From: Alphaproteobacteria bacterium
Lineage (GTDB): Bacteria > Pseudomonadota > Alphaproteobacteria > RF32 > CAG-239
Direction: 5' to 3'
Length of the DNA stretch: 64,000 nt
NCBI GenBank assembly: GCA_017464685.1
Contig: JAFTYO010000004.1
Coordinates: 1,306 to 65,305 of the forward strand
Shown in pieces: positions 9,963 to 24,432 of this stretch. The notes under the pieces are model-generated. The model was not told the origin of the DNA and did no database searches. It was given only the letters and a program-made list of their open reading frames with translations. The position numbers and the translations under genes are program-made. Every line of letters begins with the position of its first letter. The first letter of the stretch is position 1.

Positions 9963-10832
9963 TTATTTTTCCTTGTTTTCTTGTGAAAAATTCATAACAT
10001 CATGATAAATACCATAATCAACAATTTTTACAAATTCTAATCGTTCAATATCTGCCATTGGTACAATCTCTATTTTTTCTTTTGATATATTTTTTACCGT
10101 TCCTATCGGCAATCCTACCGGAAACACTCCGGCAACACCTGATGTTACCACAATATCTCCCTCTTTAATATCTGTACTCAATGATGTATATAAAAGTTTT
10201 GGTATCAACGTATTATCACCGGAAAGTATAGCTCTTTCTCTGTTCCTTTCAATAATTATCGGTATTTTTGAATTAATATCAGTAATTAAAATTACTCTGG
10301 CATATTTTCCGTTCACATTTTCAACTCTACCCACAACACTTTCATCACTCATAACCACTTGGTCTTTATATACTCTGTTTTCGTCACCGACATATACAAT
10401 TAAGGAATGAGAAAAGCCATCTCCCTCTTCTGCCACAACTTTTGCTGTAATATATGCAGCTTCCGGCAAAGAAATATAATTTAACATTTCACCCAAAAGA
10501 CGATTTTCAGCCTCAAGAGTACGCACTTTATTTTTCAGTATCATAAGTTTTATATTTTCTTCTCGCAGCTGTTTATTTTGTGAATACACTTTTATTATAT
10601 CACGAGCTTTTTCATACCCAAGATACACCATTTGAGCCGGAAATTGCATAATTCTTATGATAGGGCTTAATGTTGCTGAAATCATACCTGTCGTTTTATT
10701 TAAAACGTATGTATCCGCCTTACTTAACATCATAAGCATTAAAGCGGACACAAAAACCAAAGCAATTAAAACTTTCTTGATAAAAAGCTTAAACTGGCTC
10801 AACTTAATGAACAGAATACGGCGATGTTTCAA
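9963..10832 (-). CDS. mreC: Rod shape-determining protein MreC
   Basis: N-terminal TM segment, then a coiled coil (LREENIKL...LEAENRLL), then a beta-rich domain (VVGRV..V....ARV.LITD, P.GLPIG.V). It follows mreB. Confidence 0.9.
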   Translation of the reverse strand: MKHRRILFIKLSQFKLFIKKVLIALVFVSALMLMMLSKADTYVLNKTTGMISATLSPIIRIMQFPAQMVYLGYEKARDIIKVYSQNKQLREENIKLMILKNKVRTLEAENRLLGEMLNYISLPEAAYITAKVVAEEGDGFSHSLIVYVGDENRVYKDQVVMSDESVVGRVENVNGKYARVILITDINSKIPIIIERNRERAILSGDNTLIPKLLYTSLSTDIKEGDIVVTSGVAGVFPVGLPIGTVKNISKEKIEIVPMADIERLEFVKIVDYGIYHDVMNFSQENKEK

Positions 10833-10858: not shown

Positions 10859-11902
<1,044 letters not shown>

Positions 11903-12001: not shown

Positions 12002-12730
12002 TTAATAAAAGCTTTGTTTTATCGGATGTTTTTCATACTCCGGTATTTGTCGTACTGCAACAACTTTCTGATACATTTTCCCGAAATATGTTTTTTTACG
12101 CCATGTAAAATGAGATTTTTCTTTGGCATAATTTTCAATGTTTTGCTCCCACATACTTTCAGCAAACGGTTGATAAAGCCTATTAAATGGTTTGATTAAA
12201 AAACGCAACAAATTCCATTTTGATGGTTTATGATAATCAATAAATATTACTTTTCCACCTTCTTCAACGGAGTTTAAAGCATTATTAATTACTTTCGCTT
12301 TTGTTATCGGTGGCAGTTCATGCAAAAGCATATAACAAATCACAGTATCAAATTTTTCACTAAAGGCTTTGCTTACATCTTGAAAAATAAAATTAATTTT
12401 TTGATAAACGGTTTTACTTTTACAACGTTCTATTTGCATCGGAGTCACATCTGCAACAACATAACGTCCATAGGCTCCAACTTTTTCCGCCGTTGCCTCA
12501 ATCTGTCGTCCAAATGTACACCCCATTTGTAATACTGAGCTGTTTGTAGAAATTTCCTTTATTACATCATTAACTAATTTATGTTGCTGAAAACATGTCA
12601 AAAATGAAACTATACGCTCATCATCTAAAAAACGAGAAAGTTTTTCATTTTCGTACACATTCCCATAAATTTCCTTAACATAGGTCGGTGTTTTTACAAC
12701 CTTTGAAGCCTTTACAATATTATATTTCAT
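12002..12730 (-). CDS. rquA: Class I methyltransferase-fold protein with atypical motif I; tentatively the RquA-like rhodoquinone biosynthesis enzyme
   Basis: Rossmann MTase layout with motif I reading VLQMGCTFG (Gln where Asp/Glu is expected, Phe-Gly instead of G-x-G). Other features are YVVADVTP, VICYMLLHELP, GGKVIFIDYH and C-terminal WRKKTYFG.MYQK. From memory, the Q substitution and the C-terminal motifs are RquA hallmarks. The methyltransferase fold is firm; the RquA assignment is tentative. Confidence 0.5.
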   Translation of the reverse strand: MKYNIVKASKVVKTPTYVKEIYGNVYENEKLSRFLDDERIVSFLTCFQQHKLVNDVIKEISTNSSVLQMGCTFGRQIEATAEKVGAYGRYVVADVTPMQIERCKSKTVYQKINFIFQDVSKAFSEKFDTVICYMLLHELPPITKAKVINNALNSVEEGGKVIFIDYHKPSKWNLLRFLIKPFNRLYQPFAESMWEQNIENYAKEKSHFTWRKKTYFGKMYQKVVAVRQIPEYEKHPIKQSFY

Positions 12731-12740
12731 TGTCTATTCC

Positions 12741-13427
12741 TTACAAATATACATCATTCCTATCGATATAGCCTTGTTTTACAGCCTCAATTACAGCTGC
12801 TGTTCTGTTTGTTACTCCCAAAATTTTTAAGATAACCGTAATATGTACTTTAACAGTTCCTTCTGTTAATCCCAACTGATAAGCTATCAATTTGTTTGAC
12901 AACCCCTTGCCTATCGCTTTTATAACCTCAATTTGACGAGGTGTAAGTTTTTTATCAGTTTTGATATTTTCATTTTCGCTTAAACTTTTCAATTTATTAA
13001 TTTCTTGTGAAACTTCCTTATTTTCAGTTTTTTCTGAAAGCAATTCTTTTGGAAGATATACTCCTCCTGCCAATACCAAATTTATTGCACCAAGCATCAC
13101 TGCATTTGATGACGATTTTGGTATATATCCCGACACCCCAACTTCTAAAGTTTTTTGCAAAATTTCCTTATCAAATACGGCAGATATAATAATAATCTGA
13201 GTATCCTTAGCCAATCCGTGAATTTTTTCCAATGCATCCAGCCAATTAGCCCCCGGCATTGCTAAATCAGTTATAATAAGATCAAAATCATTTTGCTTTT
13301 GCAATTGTTCAAAAATCTCAACATAATTTTTAACCGTTATAATTTGCGAATCATCAAATTCGGCACTTAGAACAAATTCAAGTCCTTTTAAAAACAATTC
13401 GTGGTCATCTGCAATCAATATCTTCAT
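12741..13427 (-). CDS. Response regulator, NarL/FixJ (LuxR-type HTH) family; no cognate kinase in window
   Basis: The receiver domain has the acidic pair ADDH, the phospho-acceptor context LIITDLAMPG and the conserved YIPKS. A long linker leads to the C-terminal LuxR HTH (LTPRQIEVIK..GKGLSNKLIAYQLGLTEGTVKVH). Confidence 0.9.
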   Translation of the reverse strand: MKILIADDHELFLKGLEFVLSAEFDDSQIITVKNYVEIFEQLQKQNDFDLIITDLAMPGANWLDALEKIHGLAKDTQIIIISAVFDKEILQKTLEVGVSGYIPKSSSNAVMLGAINLVLAGGVYLPKELLSEKTENKEVSQEINKLKSLSENENIKTDKKLTPRQIEVIKAIGKGLSNKLIAYQLGLTEGTVKVHITVILKILGVTNRTAAVIEAVKQGYIDRNDVYL

Positions 13428-13439
13428 AATTTTTCCTTT

Positions 13440-14171
13440 TTATTGCCAATTACCTGCCAATGCCTGCCAAAGAGAAAGCGCCGCAACGACTGCGGTTTCT
13501 GCTCTTAAAATGGTTTTTCCGAGAGAAACACCATAACTATAATCTAAACTTCTTAAAATTTCTAGCTCTTTTTGTGAAAATCCGCCTTCAGGTCCCACCA
13601 AAATTGCCACCGGCGGTTCGCATTTCGGCATTTGCTCAATTGCCGATTTTGAACCCAAGCTTTCATCAAGATATATCAACTTGCGTGATTTATCCCACAT
13701 TTTAAGCAACTCTTTAAAGGTTATACATTCTGCCACTTGCGGCAAATCTTGGCGACGAGCTTGTTCACTAGCTTCTGTAACCAAAGTTTTTAATCGTTCC
13801 GTTCGTGGTTTTGAATTTGAGGTATAATCCGTAACTACGGGTACAATTTTTTTAACCCCGATTTCCGTTGCTTTTTCCACCACAAAGTCGGTATTATCTT
13901 TTTTTAAGATTGCAAACAACAGCCACAAATCCTGACTTTCAAAAAAATCGCAAAATTTTTGTTCAATTCTTAATACGCAGTTTTTCTTGCCAACACTTAC
14001 AATACGGCAACAAAACTCACCGTTTTTACCATCAAAAGCATAAACTTCATCACCGATTTTTAAGCGCATTACATTCAGCAAATAATGAGCTTGTTTTTCA
14101 TCACAAACGACTTTTATATTTTCTTTTAAGTCAGTTTCCACATAAATTCTGATACGATTTTTCTTACTCAC
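13440..14171 (-). CDS. rsmE: 16S rRNA (uracil1498-N3)-methyltransferase RsmE
   Basis: N-terminal PUA-like region (R.YV......HLLNVMRLK.GDEV..FDG) and C-terminal SPOUT knot (ILVGPEGGFS..E, LG..ILRAETA). Confidence 0.88.
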   Translation of the reverse strand: MSKKNRIRIYVETDLKENIKVVCDEKQAHYLLNVMRLKIGDEVYAFDGKNGEFCCRIVSVGKKNCVLRIEQKFCDFFESQDLWLLFAILKKDNTDFVVEKATEIGVKKIVPVVTDYTSNSKPRTERLKTLVTEASEQARRQDLPQVAECITFKELLKMWDKSRKLIYLDESLGSKSAIEQMPKCEPPVAILVGPEGGFSQKELEILRSLDYSYGVSLGKTILRAETAVVAALSLWQALAGNWQ

Positions 14172-14277
14172 TTATCACACCTTTAAAAACTTTGGCATAA
14201 AATTAAATATCCGACTGCATTATAACAAAATATATGTTAATGAATAAATAACATTAACCAAATAAAACGGAAAAAAG

Positions 14278-14943
14278 ATGATTATCACAATTGATGGTCC
14301 TGCCGCTGCAGGAAAAGGAACTCTTTGTTCATATTTATCAAAACATTATCAACTGGCTTATTTTGATACCGGTATGGTTTATCGTGCGGTCGGACTTGAT
14401 ATGGTTTTGCAAAATCTTAATCTTCAAGATGAGGAAACAGCCGAAAAAATCGCCCAAAACCTGACTTTTGAAAAAATGATGATGCTATCCAAACACCCTG
14501 ATTTTCGTTCAGATGTCGGAGGGATTGCCGCATCAAAAGTGTCTGCTTTGCCCAAAGTCAGAGCCGCTTTGTTAAAAATGCAGCAAGATTTTGCACTAAA
14601 TCCTGTTTTTGCCGATGGAACACCTGCTAATGGTGTGATTTACGACGGCAGAGATACCGGCACCGTTGTTTGCCCCAATGCTGATATCAAACTTTTTGTA
14701 ACAGCATCTTCCGAGGTCAGAGCCAAAAGACGCTTTGATGAATTTATATCCAAAGGTATTAACACAACCTATGACAAAGTATTAGAAGATATGATTGCTC
14801 GTGACAAACGAGACCAAGAACGAGCATCAGCTCCTCTAAAACCGGCCGACGATGCTATTGTATTTGATACCTCTGATATGACCGCTCAAGAAGAAATCAA
14901 CAAAGCCATTGAAATTATTGAAACAAAGAAAAAATCTTTGTAA
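14278..14943 (+). CDS. cmk: Cytidylate kinase
   Basis: ITIDGPAAAGKGT P-loop, FDTG.VYRAV, DGRDTGTVV, and the R...D..RD lid region. Confidence 0.93.
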   Translation: MIITIDGPAAAGKGTLCSYLSKHYQLAYFDTGMVYRAVGLDMVLQNLNLQDEETAEKIAQNLTFEKMMMLSKHPDFRSDVGGIAASKVSALPKVRAALLKMQQDFALNPVFADGTPANGVIYDGRDTGTVVCPNADIKLFVTASSEVRAKRRFDEFISKGINTTYDKVLEDMIARDKRDQERASAPLKPADDAIVFDTSDMTAQEEINKAIEIIETKKKSL

Positions 14944-15704: not shown

Positions 15705-16916
15705 TTATTTTAAACTTTTTTTCATCATACAAAAAAAGAAACCATCTGTATTGGTTACAAGCGGTGAGAGCTTTACATAATCTGAACTGTTACACGGATA
15801 CAAAGTATCAATTTTTTCTTCCCACAAATTTTTATGATTTACAAAAACCATATCCTGATGTTTTTGCTTAAAAGCACTTACAATATTTTCGTTTTCATCT
15901 TGTAAAACAGAACAAGTCATATAAACAATATATCCGCCCTTTTTAGTGCTTTTATATGCGGTTTCTAAAATTTCAAGCTGAGTTTCATTTAATTCTTCTA
16001 TGTGTTTTGCGCTCAATCTGAATTTTGAGTCGGGAGCTCGTCTTAATGTTCCGCTACCCGAACACGGAGCATCAATTATAAACCTGTCATAACTGCTATC
16101 ATCAAGTATGCGTACAATTTTAATATTCCGGATTCCAAGCCTTAATGCTCTGTCTTTTATAACATCCATACGATTAAAATTAGCATCATGAGCATATATA
16201 ACACCCTCATTACGGTTTATTGCCGCAATTGCCAAACTCTTACCTCCGGCACCGGCGCAATAATCAATCACTTTTTCATCAGGCGACACATCACATAAAA
16301 TGGCGGCAATTTGTGAAGATTCATCTTGCACATCAACCAGTCCCTCGTGATAAGCGATGCAATTGTTTAAGTTTACTCTCTCAGATGAACGCAAACCATA
16401 CGGCGAATATGTAGTCGGGGTAAAAAACAAACCTTCACTTTCCAAACGCTTTTTCACCATTGTTCGCTCTGCCATATTTACCCTTAAATCTGCCGGAGCG
16501 CTCATATTTAAGGCTTGTACCATCGAAAGTGAATTGATTTTTTCAAAAAGCCATTTCGGGCATTCATTTTCGACATATTCGGGATAAACCTCATCACTAA
16601 GATTTTTCAACCACTTTTTTTCTTCACTGCTAAGCGGTGCAAAACCATATTGCCCGCCGGTTATAATGTCAAAATCTTCATCTTTAAGATACACAAGCAA
16701 AACTTTTCTGACATCTTTGCTTTTTGCATCAAATTCCAAACGCATACGATGTCTTATAATATCCCATACGGTTTCAACAATAAACCTGCGGTCTTTTGAG
16801 CCGATATATTTTCTTTTACGAACATAATCGTTGATTATAACATCTGCCGGTTTTTTATCTTCAAAAACCTTGCTTATCAGCTCAAAAACCGCTTGATATC
16901 TAGCAGCTATTTGCAT
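15705..16916 (-). CDS. rsmB: 16S rRNA (cytosine-C5)-methyltransferase RsmB/Sun family
   Basis: N-terminal NusB-like region, SAM site DYCAGAGGKS, catalytic DAPCSGSGTLRR and TCS motifs. ATG at 16916; the track starts 3 nt earlier at TTG. Confidence 0.88.
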   Translation of the reverse strand: MQIAARYQAVFELISKVFEDKKPADVIINDYVRKRKYIGSKDRRFIVETVWDIIRHRMRLEFDAKSKDVRKVLLVYLKDEDFDIITGGQYGFAPLSSEEKKWLKNLSDEVYPEYVENECPKWLFEKINSLSMVQALNMSAPADLRVNMAERTMVKKRLESEGLFFTPTTYSPYGLRSSERVNLNNCIAYHEGLVDVQDESSQIAAILCDVSPDEKVIDYCAGAGGKSLAIAAINRNEGVIYAHDANFNRMDVIKDRALRLGIRNIKIVRILDDSSYDRFIIDAPCSGSGTLRRAPDSKFRLSAKHIEELNETQLEILETAYKSTKKGGYIVYMTCSVLQDENENIVSAFKQKHQDMVFVNHKNLWEEKIDTLYPCNSSDYVKLSPLVTNTDGFFFCMMKKSLK

Positions 16917-16940
16917 CAACTCACCTTCTTGACCGTTTTA

Positions 16941-18308
16941 TCAGCTCAAAAAATATTCTCTTAAGTAGTTAGGCAAATCAGCAATATTAACCCTAACCTG
17001 CTCCATTGTATCTCTGTCTCTGACCGTAACAGATGCCGGCTCTTGCTCAATGGTTTCAAAATCAACGGTTAAACAAAGAGGTGTTCCGATTTCATCGTGC
17101 CTGCGATATGCTTTACCGATATTTCCGGTATTTTCCAATGCCACACGACCAATACCGAGTTTTAGCAAATTGTTCTTAATTTCATAACATTTTTGCATAA
17201 TCTGTTCATTGTTTTTCTTTAACGGAATTACCGCAACCTTAATCGGAGCTAAATGTTTTTTAAGTTTTAATACAATGCGAGAGTTACCATCACCCAAATC
17301 TTCTTCGGTATAAGCTTCGGTCATAACCGCCAACACCCCTCTATCCACACCCATAGAGGGCTCAATCACATACGGGATTACCCATTTATTGTTCTCATCA
17401 TCTCTTATACAAAGTTTTGTAGTAGATTCGGTGTTTTCGTGACAATGAGCCTCGAGTTCAAACTCATCTTGCGCTTTGGTATGATTACCCAAGTCATAAT
17501 CTCGACGATTGGCAATTCCTTCCAATTCTTCCATACCGTGCGGAAAACGATATTCAATATCGTAACAAGCTTTGGCATAATGCGCCAAATCATCTTTTGG
17601 TGTGGTATAAATGTTTATATTTTCTTTTTTCAAGCCCTGCTCTTCCCACCATTTAATACGAGTTTCTTTCCACATTTCGTGCCATTTTTCATCTTCGCCC
17701 GGAGCTACAAAAAACTCCAATTCAGCCTGCTCAAATTCACGAACTCTAAAAATAAAATTACGAGGTGTAATTTCATTTCTGAATGATTTTCCGATTTGAG
17801 CAATACCGAACGGAAGTTTTCTTGAAGTAGAATCAACCACATTTTTAAACTGAACAAATATGGCCTGTGCTGTTTCAGGACGCAAATATGCCAAATTTTC
17901 ATCATTTTCAACCGGACCGGTTTGAGTTTTAAACATCAAATTAAACGGTCTTGGATCTGTTAAATCAGTCGAACCACAAAGAGGACATTTACCATCAGTA
18001 AGATGGTCTGCTCTAAAGCGGCCCTTACATTTTTTGCAATCTACCATCGGGTCCGAAAATGTATCTTCGTGACCGGAATATTTCAAAACTTTACGATTCG
18101 TCAAAATTGCGGCATCTAAGCCTTCCACATCATCTCTTTCATAGACCATGGAGCGACACCAAGCCGCTTTTAAGTTATTTTTAAGCTCAACACCTAACGG
18201 ACCGTAATCATAGACACCTTGCATACCACCGTAAATATCGGCATTTTGAAAAATAAAACCTCTTCTTTTACACAACGATACAAGTTGTTCCATAGTAGTT
18301 GCAGACAT
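16941..18308 (-). CDS. glyQS: Glycine--tRNA ligase, homodimeric (alpha2, GlyQS) type
   Basis: Single 455-aa class II aaRS: [54 protein letters not shown], and C-terminal anticodon-binding domain. Confidence 0.93.
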
Positions 18309-23261: not shown

Positions 23262-24432
23262 TTACCCAACCGCCGAACGGATATGCAAAATTATTGTCTT
23301 GTTCCTCATCATTTTGACTGTTTTCATTTTCTGTAATATCGATTGTCTCAAGTTCAATATACGGCTCAAATTTATCTTCTTCCATTCCCATCTGTAACAT
23401 TGGCATTGGAACATTTTCCTTTTCAGAATCGGTATGCATATCAAAACGAGGAAAATCTTTCTCTTGTATATCCGTATCTGCATTAACAATAAAATTCTGA
23501 TGGGTCTCTTCGGGAGTATTCATACTTCTTTCTAAAGCATTAAAAAAATCATCATCAGAAGCATTATCAATATTTCTAACATAATTTATTTTAGTTTTCT
23601 TAAACGGATTCAGTTTTTTCCAGACAGACATAGTTTCTTGCATATTTTCAGGTTCCTTCATCTCTAAAATTCTAGGTGAAACATCTAGCTCACTATCTGT
23701 AACATCATCTTGCTTAATATCCTCATCAACCGAAAAATTTGTAGCATCGGCAACGGGTGCCAATATAGAATATACCTTACCCATTACGCCAGTTTCCAAA
23801 ATAGTAATAAAAACCCTGTCTCTATCGTGTTTTTCCAATAGTGCTGTCAAATTTTGATAGCGATAACAAAACTCTAACAACGTGCCTTTAAACACTTTGT
23901 CTTTTTGTGATTTCTGAGCCAAATAGGAAGCAAAATCATCATGATTTTTTGATGTTTCAACTAAAGTTTTAGCAATAGCCCAACGTTCTCCATTTTTAAC
24001 TTTTGCCCACAATTGTTCCATCTGCAAAGATGAAGCAACATTACATCTTTGCACAATATCCGCCAAAATTTCGTTCATGTCGGCAACAAACACATCAAAT
24101 TTATTAACGACAAACCCGTCTTTAATTTCATGTTCAGCATCAAGCATCACTCTGACCACTAAATCAGTATAATCTTGATTTTTTTTCATCTGATTAAATA
24201 ATTGAAGCAATTTCTTTTCAGTTTGCGTACTTGATTTATAAGTACTTATTAAACCAAAAATTTGCCACAAAGCCCAAACAGGAACAATTATTAACCCGAC
24301 ATAAAGAGCAATATCTATCACCGGCTGTGAGCTCAAATCATTCCCAGCCAGATTGGCAACAACATATAAAGATATATATATCACCCATGTAACAGATGAA
24401 AATACTGATACAAAAAACAAAAATGCTAACAA
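23239..24432 (-). CDS. Hypothetical membrane protein (397 aa): two N-terminal TM helices and an acidic C-terminal half
   Basis: Hydrophobic N-terminus (LAFLFFVSVFSSVTWVIYISLYVV; ALYVGLIIVPVWALWQIFGLI). TTG start as given by the ORF track. Overlaps the SBP gene start by 23 nt. Confidence 0.5.
   Translation of the reverse strand: MLAFLFFVSVFSSVTWVIYISLYVVANLAGNDLSSQPVIDIALYVGLIIVPVWALWQIFGLISTYKSSTQTEKKLLQLFNQMKKNQDYTDLVVRVMLDAEHEIKDGFVVNKFDVFVADMNEILADIVQRCNVASSLQMEQLWAKVKNGERWAIAKTLVETSKNHDDFASYLAQKSQKDKVFKGTLLEFCYRYQNLTALLEKHDRDRVFITILETGVMGKVYSILAPVADATNFSVDEDIKQDDVTDSELDVSPRILEMKEPENMQETMSVWKKLNPFKKTKINYVRNIDNASDDDFFNALERSMNTPEETHQNFIVNADTDIQEKDFPRFDMHTDSEKENVPMPMLQMGMEEDKFEPYIELETIDITENENSQNDEEQDNNFAYPFGGWVNEENYKK

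What the first reader, a model, noticed from the sequence alone, without database searches (positions are those of the whole stretch)
12002..13427. Putative RquA (rhodoquinone biosynthesis) gene co-oriented with an orphan FixJ/NarL-type response regulator
Seen: the 242-aa methyltransferase-fold protein has VLQMGCTFG where class I SAM enzymes have (V/L)LD(V/L)GCG.G. Asp is replaced by Gln and the glycine-rich loop is altered. It also has FIDYH.P and a C-terminal WRKKTYFG.MYQK. Established knowledge (from memory, not searched): RquA, which converts ubiquinone to rhodoquinone using SAM as amino donor, is distinguished from UbiE/UbiG by exactly such a Gln substitution and a degenerate motif I. The gene lies 10 nt downstream of a response regulator with an intact phospho-acceptor site, and behind rsmE (12-nt gap), so the three are probably one transcript. 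Inference: the organism may run fumarate-reductase-based anaerobic respiration, and RquA expression may be under two-component (for example oxygen or redox) control. That would be notable for a reduced host-associated bacterium.
Basis: partly seen in the sequence, partly recalled or inferred. Interest (0 to 1): 0.6.

Follow-up and report, generated by a model that had tools for sequence, protein, structure and literature searches.

The report
Orphan rhodoquinone gene in gut fermenter
The gene belongs to the RquA family, whose enzymes turn ubiquinone into rhodoquinone, but this small-genome gut bacterium and its whole family cannot make ubiquinone and lack fumarate reductase and every other quinone-using enzyme I tested, so what the conserved gene does here is an open, testable question.

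Summary
On the minus strand, rsmE (13440-14171), a NarL/FixJ-type response regulator (12741-13427) and a 242-aa methyltransferase-fold gene (12002-12730) lie 12 and 10 nt apart, and every quoted motif is present.

The 242-aa protein is an RquA. It scores 211.9 bits against a cutoff of 175 on NCBIfam's RquA equivalog model. It has Gln68 where methyltransferases have Asp, keeps the RquA-specific residues, and has dN/dS of about 0.06-0.12.

The genome is an uncultured gut alphaproteobacterial MAG of the 'MAG Azo/Aceto' clade, where RquA was already reported by Stairs et al. in 2018.

The physiological inference fails. This genome and its family's complete genomes have no UbiA/MenA prenyltransferase, SdhA/FrdA, NuoH (complex I), cytochrome bd, DsbB or dihydroorotate dehydrogenase. 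E. coli queries also found no UbiE, UbiD, UbiH/I, long-chain prenyl synthase, NDH-2 or GlpD in this genome. Classical RquA-bearing Alphaproteobacteria, searched the same way, have UbiA and SdhA/FrdA.

The rsmE-RR-rquA order is ancestral: the RR is present in 64 of 80 loci. It was lost at least four times while rquA stayed.

The best reading is that RquA converts scavenged ubiquinone to rhodoquinone for an unidentified use. The main rival is a changed substrate.

The parts
12002..12730 (-). rquA: 242-aa RquA-family protein with a class I SAM-methyltransferase fold. Characterised family members are SAM- and Mn2+-dependent ubiquinone-to-rhodoquinone aminotransferases.
   Evidence: NCBIfam NF038261 equivalog, 211.9 bits against a cutoff of 175, covering model positions 2-217 of 218. 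Motif I is VLQMGCTFG with Q68. RquA-specific residues are conserved. The AF2 model has pTM 0.78 and a Rossmann methyltransferase fold. dN/dS is 0.06-0.12.
12741..13427 (-). NarL/FixJ-family response regulator (REC plus GerE/LuxR HTH), with no adjacent kinase.
   Evidence: Pfam PF00072 at 68.8 bits and PF00196 at 58.4 bits. D7, D8, D54, S82 and K104 are intact. It does not reach the cutoff of any named NCBIfam regulator; the best is ErdR at 127 bits against 390. It lies between rsmE and rquA in 64 of 80 related loci.
13440..14171 (-). rsmE: 16S rRNA (uracil1498-N3)-methyltransferase, the first gene of the co-oriented array.
   Evidence: NCBIfam NF008696, 273.9 bits against a cutoff of 234. It lies upstream of rquA in 78 of 80 related loci.
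14172..14277 (.). 106-nt divergent intergenic region between rsmE and cmk, the probable promoter region for the rsmE-RR-rquA array (inferred).
   Evidence: Gap computed. The divergent cmk is conserved in 76 of 80 loci. The promoter scan is no better than shuffles, so this rests on inference only.
14278..14943 (+). cmk (cytidylate kinase), a divergently transcribed conserved neighbour.
   Evidence: ORF. Homologues lie at the same relative position in 76 of 80 loci. The name comes from sequence similarity to the family and was not scanned separately.
10859..11899 (-). mreB, 102 nt downstream of rquA. This context is shared only with the nearest relatives.
   Evidence: ORF. It lies downstream of rquA in only 7 of 80 loci, and no other downstream gene is conserved in more than 15 of 80.

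Best explanation
The 242-aa gene encodes a functional RquA-family enzyme in an uncultured, small-genome, strictly fermentative gut alphaproteobacterium of the 'MAG Azo/Aceto' clade. The cell has no quinone ring prenyltransferase, so it cannot make ubiquinone or menaquinone. The most likely substrate is therefore ubiquinone picked up from the gut (host cells, diet or neighbouring Proteobacteria) and held in the membrane. RquA would convert it to the low-potential rhodoquinone using SAM as amino donor, as shown or proposed for rquA-bearing protists and sponges that lack ubiquinone synthesis. What uses the rhodoquinone is unknown, because no known quinone-dependent enzyme is encoded. The gene sits in an ancestral rsmE-response regulator-rquA array and is probably transcribed with it. 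Shown here: family membership, purifying selection, conserved synteny, and the absence of ubiquinone synthesis and of the quinone-dependent enzymes tested. Inferred: the substrate, its exogenous origin, co-transcription, and any control by the regulator.
For: Family: NF038261 at 211.9 bits against 175. A homologue 87% identical is named RquA by NCBI. The protein falls in an RquA clade separate from E. coli UbiE/UbiG. Residues conserved in classical RquA and different in UbiE/UbiG are kept: Y17, Y22, Y26, Q68, D94, H137, E138, D165, Y166, Q221. Selection: dN/dS is 0.06-0.12, similar to the neighbouring regulator and lower than rsmE. RquA is present in all but one of the sampled genomes of the family and in 131 confirmed relatives among one-per-species genomes. 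No quinone synthesis: no hit to E. coli UbiA/C/D/E/B/H/I or MenA. Pfam UbiA gives 0 hits in this genome and in 11 of 13 relatives that are at least 99% complete, and the few hits are decaprenyl-phosphate phosphoribosyltransferase-like. The only trans-prenyl synthase is an FPP synthase, and the U32 proteins score best as TrhP, not UbiU/V. No users: SdhA/FrdA absent, NuoH absent in the family, cytochrome bd 0 of 16, DsbB 0 of 16, DHODH of any class absent in the family, no NDH-2 or GlpD. The only FAD-Rossmann proteins found in this genome are MnmG, TrmFO and TrxB. Sister genera have Rnf, not Nqr. Method control: classical RquA-positive Alphaproteobacteria searched the same way have UbiA (E <= 1e-50) and SdhA/FrdA at about 800 bits; two of them (G070, G172) and the intermediate G027 were also checked for class 2 DHODH and have it. 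Precedent: rquA-bearing protists without UQ synthesis (PMC5953543); sponges convert labelled UQ8 from E. coli they are fed into RQ8 (bioRxiv 10.64898/2026.04.08.717022); quinone cross-feeding occurs in the gut (PMC5738691). The lineage is described as strictly anaerobic and lacking all terminal oxidases (PMC6431628).
Against: No quinone reductase or quinol oxidase was found, so rhodoquinone would have no known partner. The protists and sponges used as precedent do keep quinone-using enzymes. The orphan RquAs lie outside the well-supported clade that holds every RquA from a UbiA-bearing genome. They have their own motif I variant (VLQxGxTFG against VLQxAxVYG) and score lower on the RquA model (140-225 bits against 250-313), with a few clade members below the cutoff. 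That pattern would also fit a changed substrate. No activity, quinone or transcript data exist for this organism. This genome is only 85% complete, although complete relatives agree. A novel, unrecognised quinone pathway or user cannot be excluded by homology searches.
Confidence: 0.5

Rival explanations
1. Changed substrate. The gut-clade enzyme keeps RquA's SAM-dependent chemistry but acts on something other than ubiquinone, for example another methoxylated quinone or aromatic compound from the gut, or has a non-respiratory role linked to the neighbouring regulator.
For: There is no endogenous substrate and no enzyme to use the product. The orphan RquAs fall outside the clade of RquAs from UbiA-bearing genomes. 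They have clade-specific conserved residues, G70 and E191, and the T72-F73 variant of motif I. Their scores on the RquA model are lower, and some relatives fall below the cutoff.
Against: The protein passes the equivalog cutoff. Of 32 columns at least 90% conserved in classical RquA, 19 are equally conserved in the orphans, including the RquA-specific ones. According to Stairs et al. 2018 (PMC5953543), this clade's RquA groups with eukaryotic RquAs, a set that includes euglenids. In vitro, R. rubrum RquA did not accept the alternative substrates tested (PMC9814641).
Confidence: 0.3
2. One reading: the bacterium makes ubiquinone, converts it to rhodoquinone, and runs fumarate-reductase-based anaerobic respiration, with rquA under oxygen or redox two-component control.
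For: The RquA family assignment. The regulator is co-oriented 10 nt upstream and this arrangement is conserved. In classical Alphaproteobacteria an frdA paralogue does sit next to rquA: G070, G172, G189.
Against: No SdhA/FrdA is found in this genome or in any sampled member of its family f1; apart from one partial 305-bit, NadB-like hit in G358, none is found in families f20, f25 and f109 either. The same search finds hits of about 800 bits in classical RquA-bearing genomes. There is no UbiA or any other Ubi enzyme and no complex I.
Confidence: 0.03
3. Relic or passenger: rquA is a decaying or neutral leftover from a respiring ancestor, kept only because it sits in the rsmE operon.
For: All other quinone genes have been lost. 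Two members of the family score below the RquA cutoff and one lacks the gene (G008, G014, G021).
Against: dN/dS is 0.06-0.12 with saturated dS. None of the matches has an internal stop. 25 residues are invariant across 62 homologues down to 43% identity. The gene is retained across several families of gut Alphaproteobacteria, and rquA stays even where the adjacent regulator was lost.
Confidence: 0.05
4. An ordinary UbiE/UbiG-type or other small-molecule methyltransferase mislabelled as RquA.
For: Generic Pfam methyltransferase domains hit, and Ubie_methyltran hits weakly at 22.8 bits. Structural neighbours are generic class I methyltransferases, including Coq5.
Against: Motif I has Gln68 where methyltransferases have the SAM-binding Asp. 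The RquA equivalog model scores 211.9 bits, against 34.5 or less for any other NCBIfam model. E. coli UbiE and UbiG are very distant outgroups in the tree.
Confidence: 0.03

Closest known systems
RquA of Rhodospirillum rubrum and verified orthologues (NCBIfam NF038261; Lonjers 2012; Neupane 2022, PMC9814641)
   Same: Class I SAM-methyltransferase fold, Gln in place of the motif I Asp, conserved aspartates at the SAM site (D94 and D118 here; inferred to correspond to R. rubrum D118 and D143), similar length, and a score above the equivalog cutoff.
   Different: The host genome has no ubiquinone pathway, no fumarate reductase and none of the quinone-dependent enzymes tested. The protein lies outside the clade of RquAs from UbiA-bearing genomes and has a TFG motif I where those have VYG. 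Its activity is untested.
RquA of the gut 'MAG Azo/Aceto' Alphaproteobacteria (Stairs et al. 2018, PMC5953543)
   Same: The same lineage and the same gene. The related loci come from gut, rumen and faecal MAGs labelled Azospirillum sp., Acetobacter sp. and Candidatus Scatocola.
   Different: In the passages I read, that paper reports the gene's presence and its affinity to eukaryotic RquA. It does not say that these bacteria lack both ubiquinone synthesis and quinone-using enzymes, and it does not describe the conserved rsmE-RR-rquA array.
rquA-bearing eukaryotes without ubiquinone synthesis (protists in PMC5953543; freshwater sponges in bioRxiv 10.64898/2026.04.08.717022)
   Same: RquA is kept although the substrate cannot be made. 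Conversion of exogenous ubiquinone to rhodoquinone was shown experimentally in the sponge.
   Different: Those organisms keep mitochondrial quinone-using enzymes such as complex II. This bacterium keeps none that can be recognised.
frdABCD-rquA modules of respiring Proteobacteria
   Same: The same enzyme family.
   Different: In G070, G172 and G189 an frdA paralogue lies next to rquA. Here the neighbours are rsmE, a response regulator and mreB, and there is no frd gene anywhere.

Membership tests
RquA (rhodoquinone biosynthesis enzyme, NCBIfam NF038261) | Scores above the curated equivalog cutoff over the full model length | tested here: met
   211.9 bits against a cutoff of 175, model positions 2-217 of 218
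RquA (rhodoquinone biosynthesis enzyme, NCBIfam NF038261) | Class I SAM-methyltransferase fold with an altered motif I: Gln replaces the SAM-binding Asp of UbiE/UbiG | tested here: met
   Pfam methyltransferase domains. AF2 Rossmann fold, pTM 0.78, with Foldseek hits to class I methyltransferases including Coq5. VLQ at residues 66-68 aligned to VLD of E. coli UbiE and UbiG, and Q68 invariant in 62 homologues.
RquA (rhodoquinone biosynthesis enzyme, NCBIfam NF038261) | The two SAM-site aspartates required for activity in R. rubrum (D118, D143; PMC9814641) | tested here: inconclusive
   D94 and D118 align with aspartates conserved in 17 of 17 and 16 of 17 classical RquAs.
RquA (rhodoquinone biosynthesis enzyme, NCBIfam NF038261) | Groups with RquA and apart from UbiE/UbiG in a phylogeny | tested here: met
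   In the ML tree of 38 RquAs plus E. coli UbiE and UbiG, the window's protein sits in a starred family clade within the RquA group, though outside the starred clade of RquAs from UbiA-bearing genomes.
RquA (rhodoquinone biosynthesis enzyme, NCBIfam NF038261) | Catalyses ubiquinone to rhodoquinone | not testable with these tools
   Needs heterologous expression and LC-MS
Rhodoquinone-dependent anaerobic respiration (RquA + ubiquinone pathway + fumarate reductase) | Endogenous ubiquinone biosynthesis (UbiA prenyltransferase and the other Ubi enzymes) | tested here: not met
   No tblastn hit to E. coli UbiA/C/D/E/B/H/I. Pfam UbiA is absent from this genome and from 11 of 13 complete relatives; the rare hits are DPPR-like. 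Classical RquA-bearing genomes all hit.
Rhodoquinone-dependent anaerobic respiration (RquA + ubiquinone pathway + fumarate reductase) | Complex II / fumarate reductase flavoprotein (SdhA/FrdA) | tested here: not met
   PF00890 gives only 30-45-residue matches to the FAD motif. TIGR01812 gives no hit in this genome or in any sampled member of its family f1, against about 800 bits in classical RquA-bearing genomes.
Rhodoquinone-dependent anaerobic respiration (RquA + ubiquinone pathway + fumarate reductase) | A quinone reductase such as complex I, NDH-2 or Nqr | tested here: not met
   No Nuo or Ndh by tblastn. NuoH is absent from the family. PF03116 is absent from this genus, and where it occurs it is Rnf.
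NarL/FixJ-type two-component response regulator | Receiver domain with phospho-acceptor Asp, plus a GerE/LuxR-type HTH output domain | tested here: met
   PF00072 and PF00196; D7, D8, D54, S82, K104
NarL/FixJ-type two-component response regulator | Cognate histidine kinase encoded next to it | tested here: not met
   The neighbours are rsmE, cmk, rquA and mreB. About five or six kinase-sized HATPase_c proteins lie elsewhere in the genome.

The most novel reading that the evidence does not exclude
Several related families of gut Alphaproteobacteria keep RquA under purifying selection although they have no quinone-based metabolism of their own. They may convert host, dietary or neighbour-derived ubiquinone into rhodoquinone for a purpose outside classical respiration. 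Possibilities are an unrecognised rhodoquinone-dependent enzyme, an extracellular or membrane redox shuttle, or a product passed to other gut organisms or to the host. The last would make them a candidate microbial source of the rhodoquinone reported in vertebrate tissues, whose origin the 2026 sponge preprint describes as unexplained by either known pathway.
Probability: 0.12. Interest if true: 0.85.

Novelty: new variant of a known kind. Interest (0 to 1): 0.6.

Why it matters
RquA is the only known bacterial route to rhodoquinone, and it has always been read as a marker of fumarate-reductase-based anaerobic respiration. Here it is conserved and under purifying selection in a whole group of common gut bacteria that have neither its substrate pathway nor any known enzyme to use its product. 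So annotating RquA does not by itself predict rhodoquinone respiration. It also points to either quinone scavenging and remodelling in the gut or a second function for this unusual SAM-dependent aminotransferase. Both are directly testable: express the gene in E. coli, and profile quinones in samples rich in this clade. The result bears on where rhodoquinone in the gut ecosystem, and possibly in host tissues, comes from.

Tried and rejected
1. Candidate ubiquinone genes in this genome were checked and dismissed. The IspB-like hit is an FPP synthase. The two UbiU-like U32 proteins score best as TrhP and far below the UbiU/V cutoffs. The weak UbiG-like hits are 573-580-aa TPR-methyltransferase fusions.

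2. The UbiA-family genes in three relatives (G005, G017, G025) are decaprenyl-phosphate phosphoribosyltransferase-like, not UbiA or MenA.

3. The PF03116 hits in sister genera could have been the quinone reductase Nqr. Gene order (C-D-G-E), the Fe-S motifs in subunit C and the NCBIfam scores show they are Rnf.

4. A search for a conserved partner gene downstream of rquA found nothing present in more than 15 of 80 loci.

5. A search for transcript evidence found only gut metagenome DNA runs that hold the locus.

6. No RquA structure exists in the PDB, and the fold search gives only generic class I methyltransferases.

7. I could not obtain the R. rubrum RquA sequence as a named anchor. As a substitute, the tree uses RquAs from genomes with full respiratory gene sets.

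8. The promoter and terminator scans are no better than shuffles, so I drew no conclusion from them.

9. Bulk annotation of the whole genome was not possible with the tools available. Absences therefore rest on targeted HMM and tblastn searches with positive controls.
Full report
OBSERVATION. The window carries three co-oriented ORFs on the minus strand, exactly as described: rsmE (13440..14171, 243 aa), a response regulator (12741..13427, 228 aa) and a 242-aa methyltransferase-fold gene (12002..12730). The gaps are 12 and 10 nt. cmk is transcribed divergently 106 nt upstream of rsmE, and mreB follows 102 nt downstream. The quoted motifs are present: VLQMGCTFG at 66-74, FIDYHKP at 163-169 and WRKKTYFGKMYQK at 210-222. 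Pfam and NCBIfam confirm RsmE (273.9 bits against 234) and a REC plus GerE/LuxR regulator. The regulator has an intact acidic pocket, phospho-acceptor D54, S82 and K104. It reaches no named regulator's cutoff; the best is ErdR at 127 against 390.

IS IT RquA? Yes, as a family member.
- NCBIfam's equivalog model NF038261 scores 211.9 bits against a curated cutoff of 175, over essentially the whole model. The next best model scores 34.5 bits.
- A homologue 87% identical is already named RquA by NCBI.
- Gln68 replaces the motif I Asp of E. coli UbiE and UbiG, and it is invariant in 62 homologues down to 43% identity.
- In an ML tree with E. coli UbiE and UbiG as distant outgroups, the protein sits among RquAs.
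- The AF2 model (pTM 0.78) is a class I methyltransferase fold with yeast Coq5 among its neighbours. No RquA structure exists in the PDB.
- Pairwise dN/dS against congeners is 0.06-0.12, close to the regulator (0.05-0.09) and below rsmE (0.14-0.22). dS is near saturation.

WHOSE GENOME? The assembly is 1.38 Mb in 52 contigs, about 34% GC and 85% complete. The locus occurs only in gut metagenome runs. The 80 related loci come from human, mouse, ruminant and poultry gut MAGs labelled Alphaproteobacteria, 'Azospirillum sp.', 'Acetobacter sp.' and Candidatus Scatocola. This is the 'MAG Azo/Aceto' clade, in which Stairs et al. 2018 already reported RquA and [FeFe]-hydrogenase genes (PMC5953543; PMC4967309). 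It was later described as lacking all terminal oxidases (PMC6431628). The presence of RquA in this lineage is therefore already known.

THE PHYSIOLOGICAL INFERENCE FAILS. With E. coli K-12 proteins as tblastn queries, the genome gave no hit at E < 1e-3 for any of these:
- ubiquinone and menaquinone synthesis: UbiA, UbiC, UbiD, UbiE, UbiB, UbiH, UbiI, MenA;
- complex II and fumarate reductase: SdhABCD, FrdABCD;
- other respiratory and quinone-linked enzymes: CydAB, most Nuo subunits, Rsx, DsbB, PyrD, Ndh.

The only Nuo hit was a ferredoxin motif inside PFOR. ATP synthase and SucCD were found.

The few candidate hits were resolved. The IspB-like protein is an FPP synthase. The two U32 proteins score best as TrhP, far below the UbiU/V cutoffs. 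The rare UbiA-family genes in three relatives are decaprenyl-phosphate phosphoribosyltransferase-like.

HMM searches of this genome and up to 15 relatives, 13 of them at least 99% complete, gave these results:

| Family searched | Result |
|---|---|
| UbiA superfamily | 0 in this genome and in 11 of 13 complete relatives |
| SdhA/FrdA | none (only 30-45-residue FAD-motif matches) |
| Cytochrome bd | 0 of 16 |
| NuoH | none in the family |
| DsbB | 0 of 16 |
| DHODH, any class | none in the family |
| PF03116 (Rnf/Nqr) | absent from this genus; Rnf where present |

A sweep of all ORFs of at least 250 aa for N-terminal dinucleotide-binding motifs found only three FAD enzymes: MnmG, TrmFO and thioredoxin reductase. 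PFOR is present.

The method is sensitive in this class. Among 401 sampled Alphaproteobacteria, the classical RquA-bearing genomes (2-5 Mb) all show UbiA-family hits at E <= 1e-50 and SdhA/FrdA at about 800 bits, and the three RquA-bearing genomes from outside the orphan families that were checked for class 2 DHODH have it (G070, G172 and the intermediate G027). In G070, G172 and G189 an frdA paralogue lies directly beside rquA. The 'orphan' state (RquA without UbiA or SdhA) covers this family and at least three other small-genome families: f20, f25 and f109.

IS THE ORPHAN RquA DIFFERENT? Partly.
- All RquAs from UbiA-bearing genomes form one well-supported clade (100/97). The orphan RquAs fall outside it, at an unresolved base.
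- Of 32 columns at least 90% conserved in classical RquA, 19 are equally conserved in the orphans. These include the RquA-specific Y17, Y22, Y26, H137-E138, D165-Y166 and Q221, and the SAM-site D94.
- Motif I reads VLQxGxTFG in place of VLQxAxVYG, and G70 and E191 are clade-specific.
- Scores on the RquA model are lower (140-225 bits against 250-313), and a few relatives fall under the cutoff.
- The most conserved loop, FNRLYQPFAE at 182-191, is modelled with low confidence and may be a mobile lid. That is my inference.

THE REGULATOR LINK. The order cmk | rsmE-RR-rquA is ancestral. rsmE lies upstream in 78 of 80 loci and the regulator lies between in 64 of 80, down to 43% RquA identity. On the RquA tree the regulator was lost from the array at least four times while rquA stayed directly behind rsmE. 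The genome has about five or six unlinked kinase-sized HATPase proteins. Nothing downstream is conserved. Conserved adjacency in vertically related genomes is weak evidence for regulation. Co-transcription is plausible from the 10-12-nt gaps, but there are no RNA data and the consensus scans are uninformative.

MECHANISM. The most likely reading (about 0.5) is that the enzyme still aminates a methoxy-benzoquinone, and that the substrate is ubiquinone taken up from the gut. There is precedent: quinone cross-feeding among gut bacteria (PMC5738691), rquA-bearing protists without ubiquinone synthesis (PMC5953543), and freshwater sponges that convert labelled UQ8 from E. coli they are fed into RQ8 (bioRxiv 10.64898/2026.04.08.717022). 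The weak point is that no rhodoquinone-using enzyme is recognisable. The main rival (about 0.3) is a changed substrate or role.

NOVELTY AND SCORE. The gene family and its presence in this lineage are known, and annotation pipelines would name it RquA. In the papers I read I found no published statement that RquA is kept under purifying selection in bacteria with no quinone synthesis and no quinone-dependent enzyme. The rsmE-RR-rquA array also appears undescribed. An earlier agent of this scan reached the same 'orphan RquA' reading on another genome (e1-5220474). I arrived at it independently and tested it here with positive controls. I rate this a new variant of a known kind, with interest 0.6.

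Noticed in passing
whole genome G000 and family f1: No dihydroorotate dehydrogenase of any class was found in this genome or in any sampled family member, although all 14 control genomes hit. The lineage probably cannot make pyrimidines de novo and relies on salvage.
   Followed up: partly
G070:C1:468826-471343; G172:C2:73906-76332; G189:C5:104742-107255: In three large-genome Alphaproteobacteria a second SdhA/FrdA paralogue (about 740-766 bits) lies directly next to rquA. This is the classical fumarate reductase-rquA pairing that is missing here.
   Followed up: partly
G000:C3:64841-65164 and G003:C30:16431-16754: A 454-aa histidine-kinase-like open frame carries one in-frame TAA at the matching place in two genomes of the genus. 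It could be a shared pseudogene, two adjacent ORFs or a read-through.
   Followed up: no
G000:C52 (580 aa, around 9982-10275) and G000:C44 (573 aa, around 16768-17040): There are two paralogous proteins with long N-terminal TPR regions fused to a C-terminal class I methyltransferase domain. They were the only weak UbiG-like hits in the genome.
   Followed up: no
L116 (G019:C16, about 74193-75137): An RnfC-D-G-E cluster is present in several sister genera (G010, G011, G017, G019, G021, G025) but absent from all six sampled genomes of the window's own genus. So membrane energy conservation differs within the family.
   Followed up: partly
window 12160-12190 (RquA residues 180-191): The most strongly conserved RquA segment, FNRLYQPFAE, is the least confidently modelled part of the AF2 structure (pLDDT < 50). 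It may be a mobile lid or a membrane- or substrate-binding loop.
   Followed up: no
L018, L019, L020 (G025, G005, G017): A few relatives carry a UbiA-superfamily gene that scores as decaprenyl-phosphate phosphoribosyltransferase. In G025 it sits next to a large multi-pass membrane protein, which suggests a cell-envelope glycan pathway and not quinone synthesis.
   Followed up: partly
G000:C20 (ORF around 23695-23955; 1185 aa): A full-length pyruvate:ferredoxin oxidoreductase is present (TIGR02176, 1792.8 bits). This genome gave no hit to NuoE or NuoF, so the HymABC-type hydrogenase module described for some members of the clade may be missing from this genus.
   Followed up: partly
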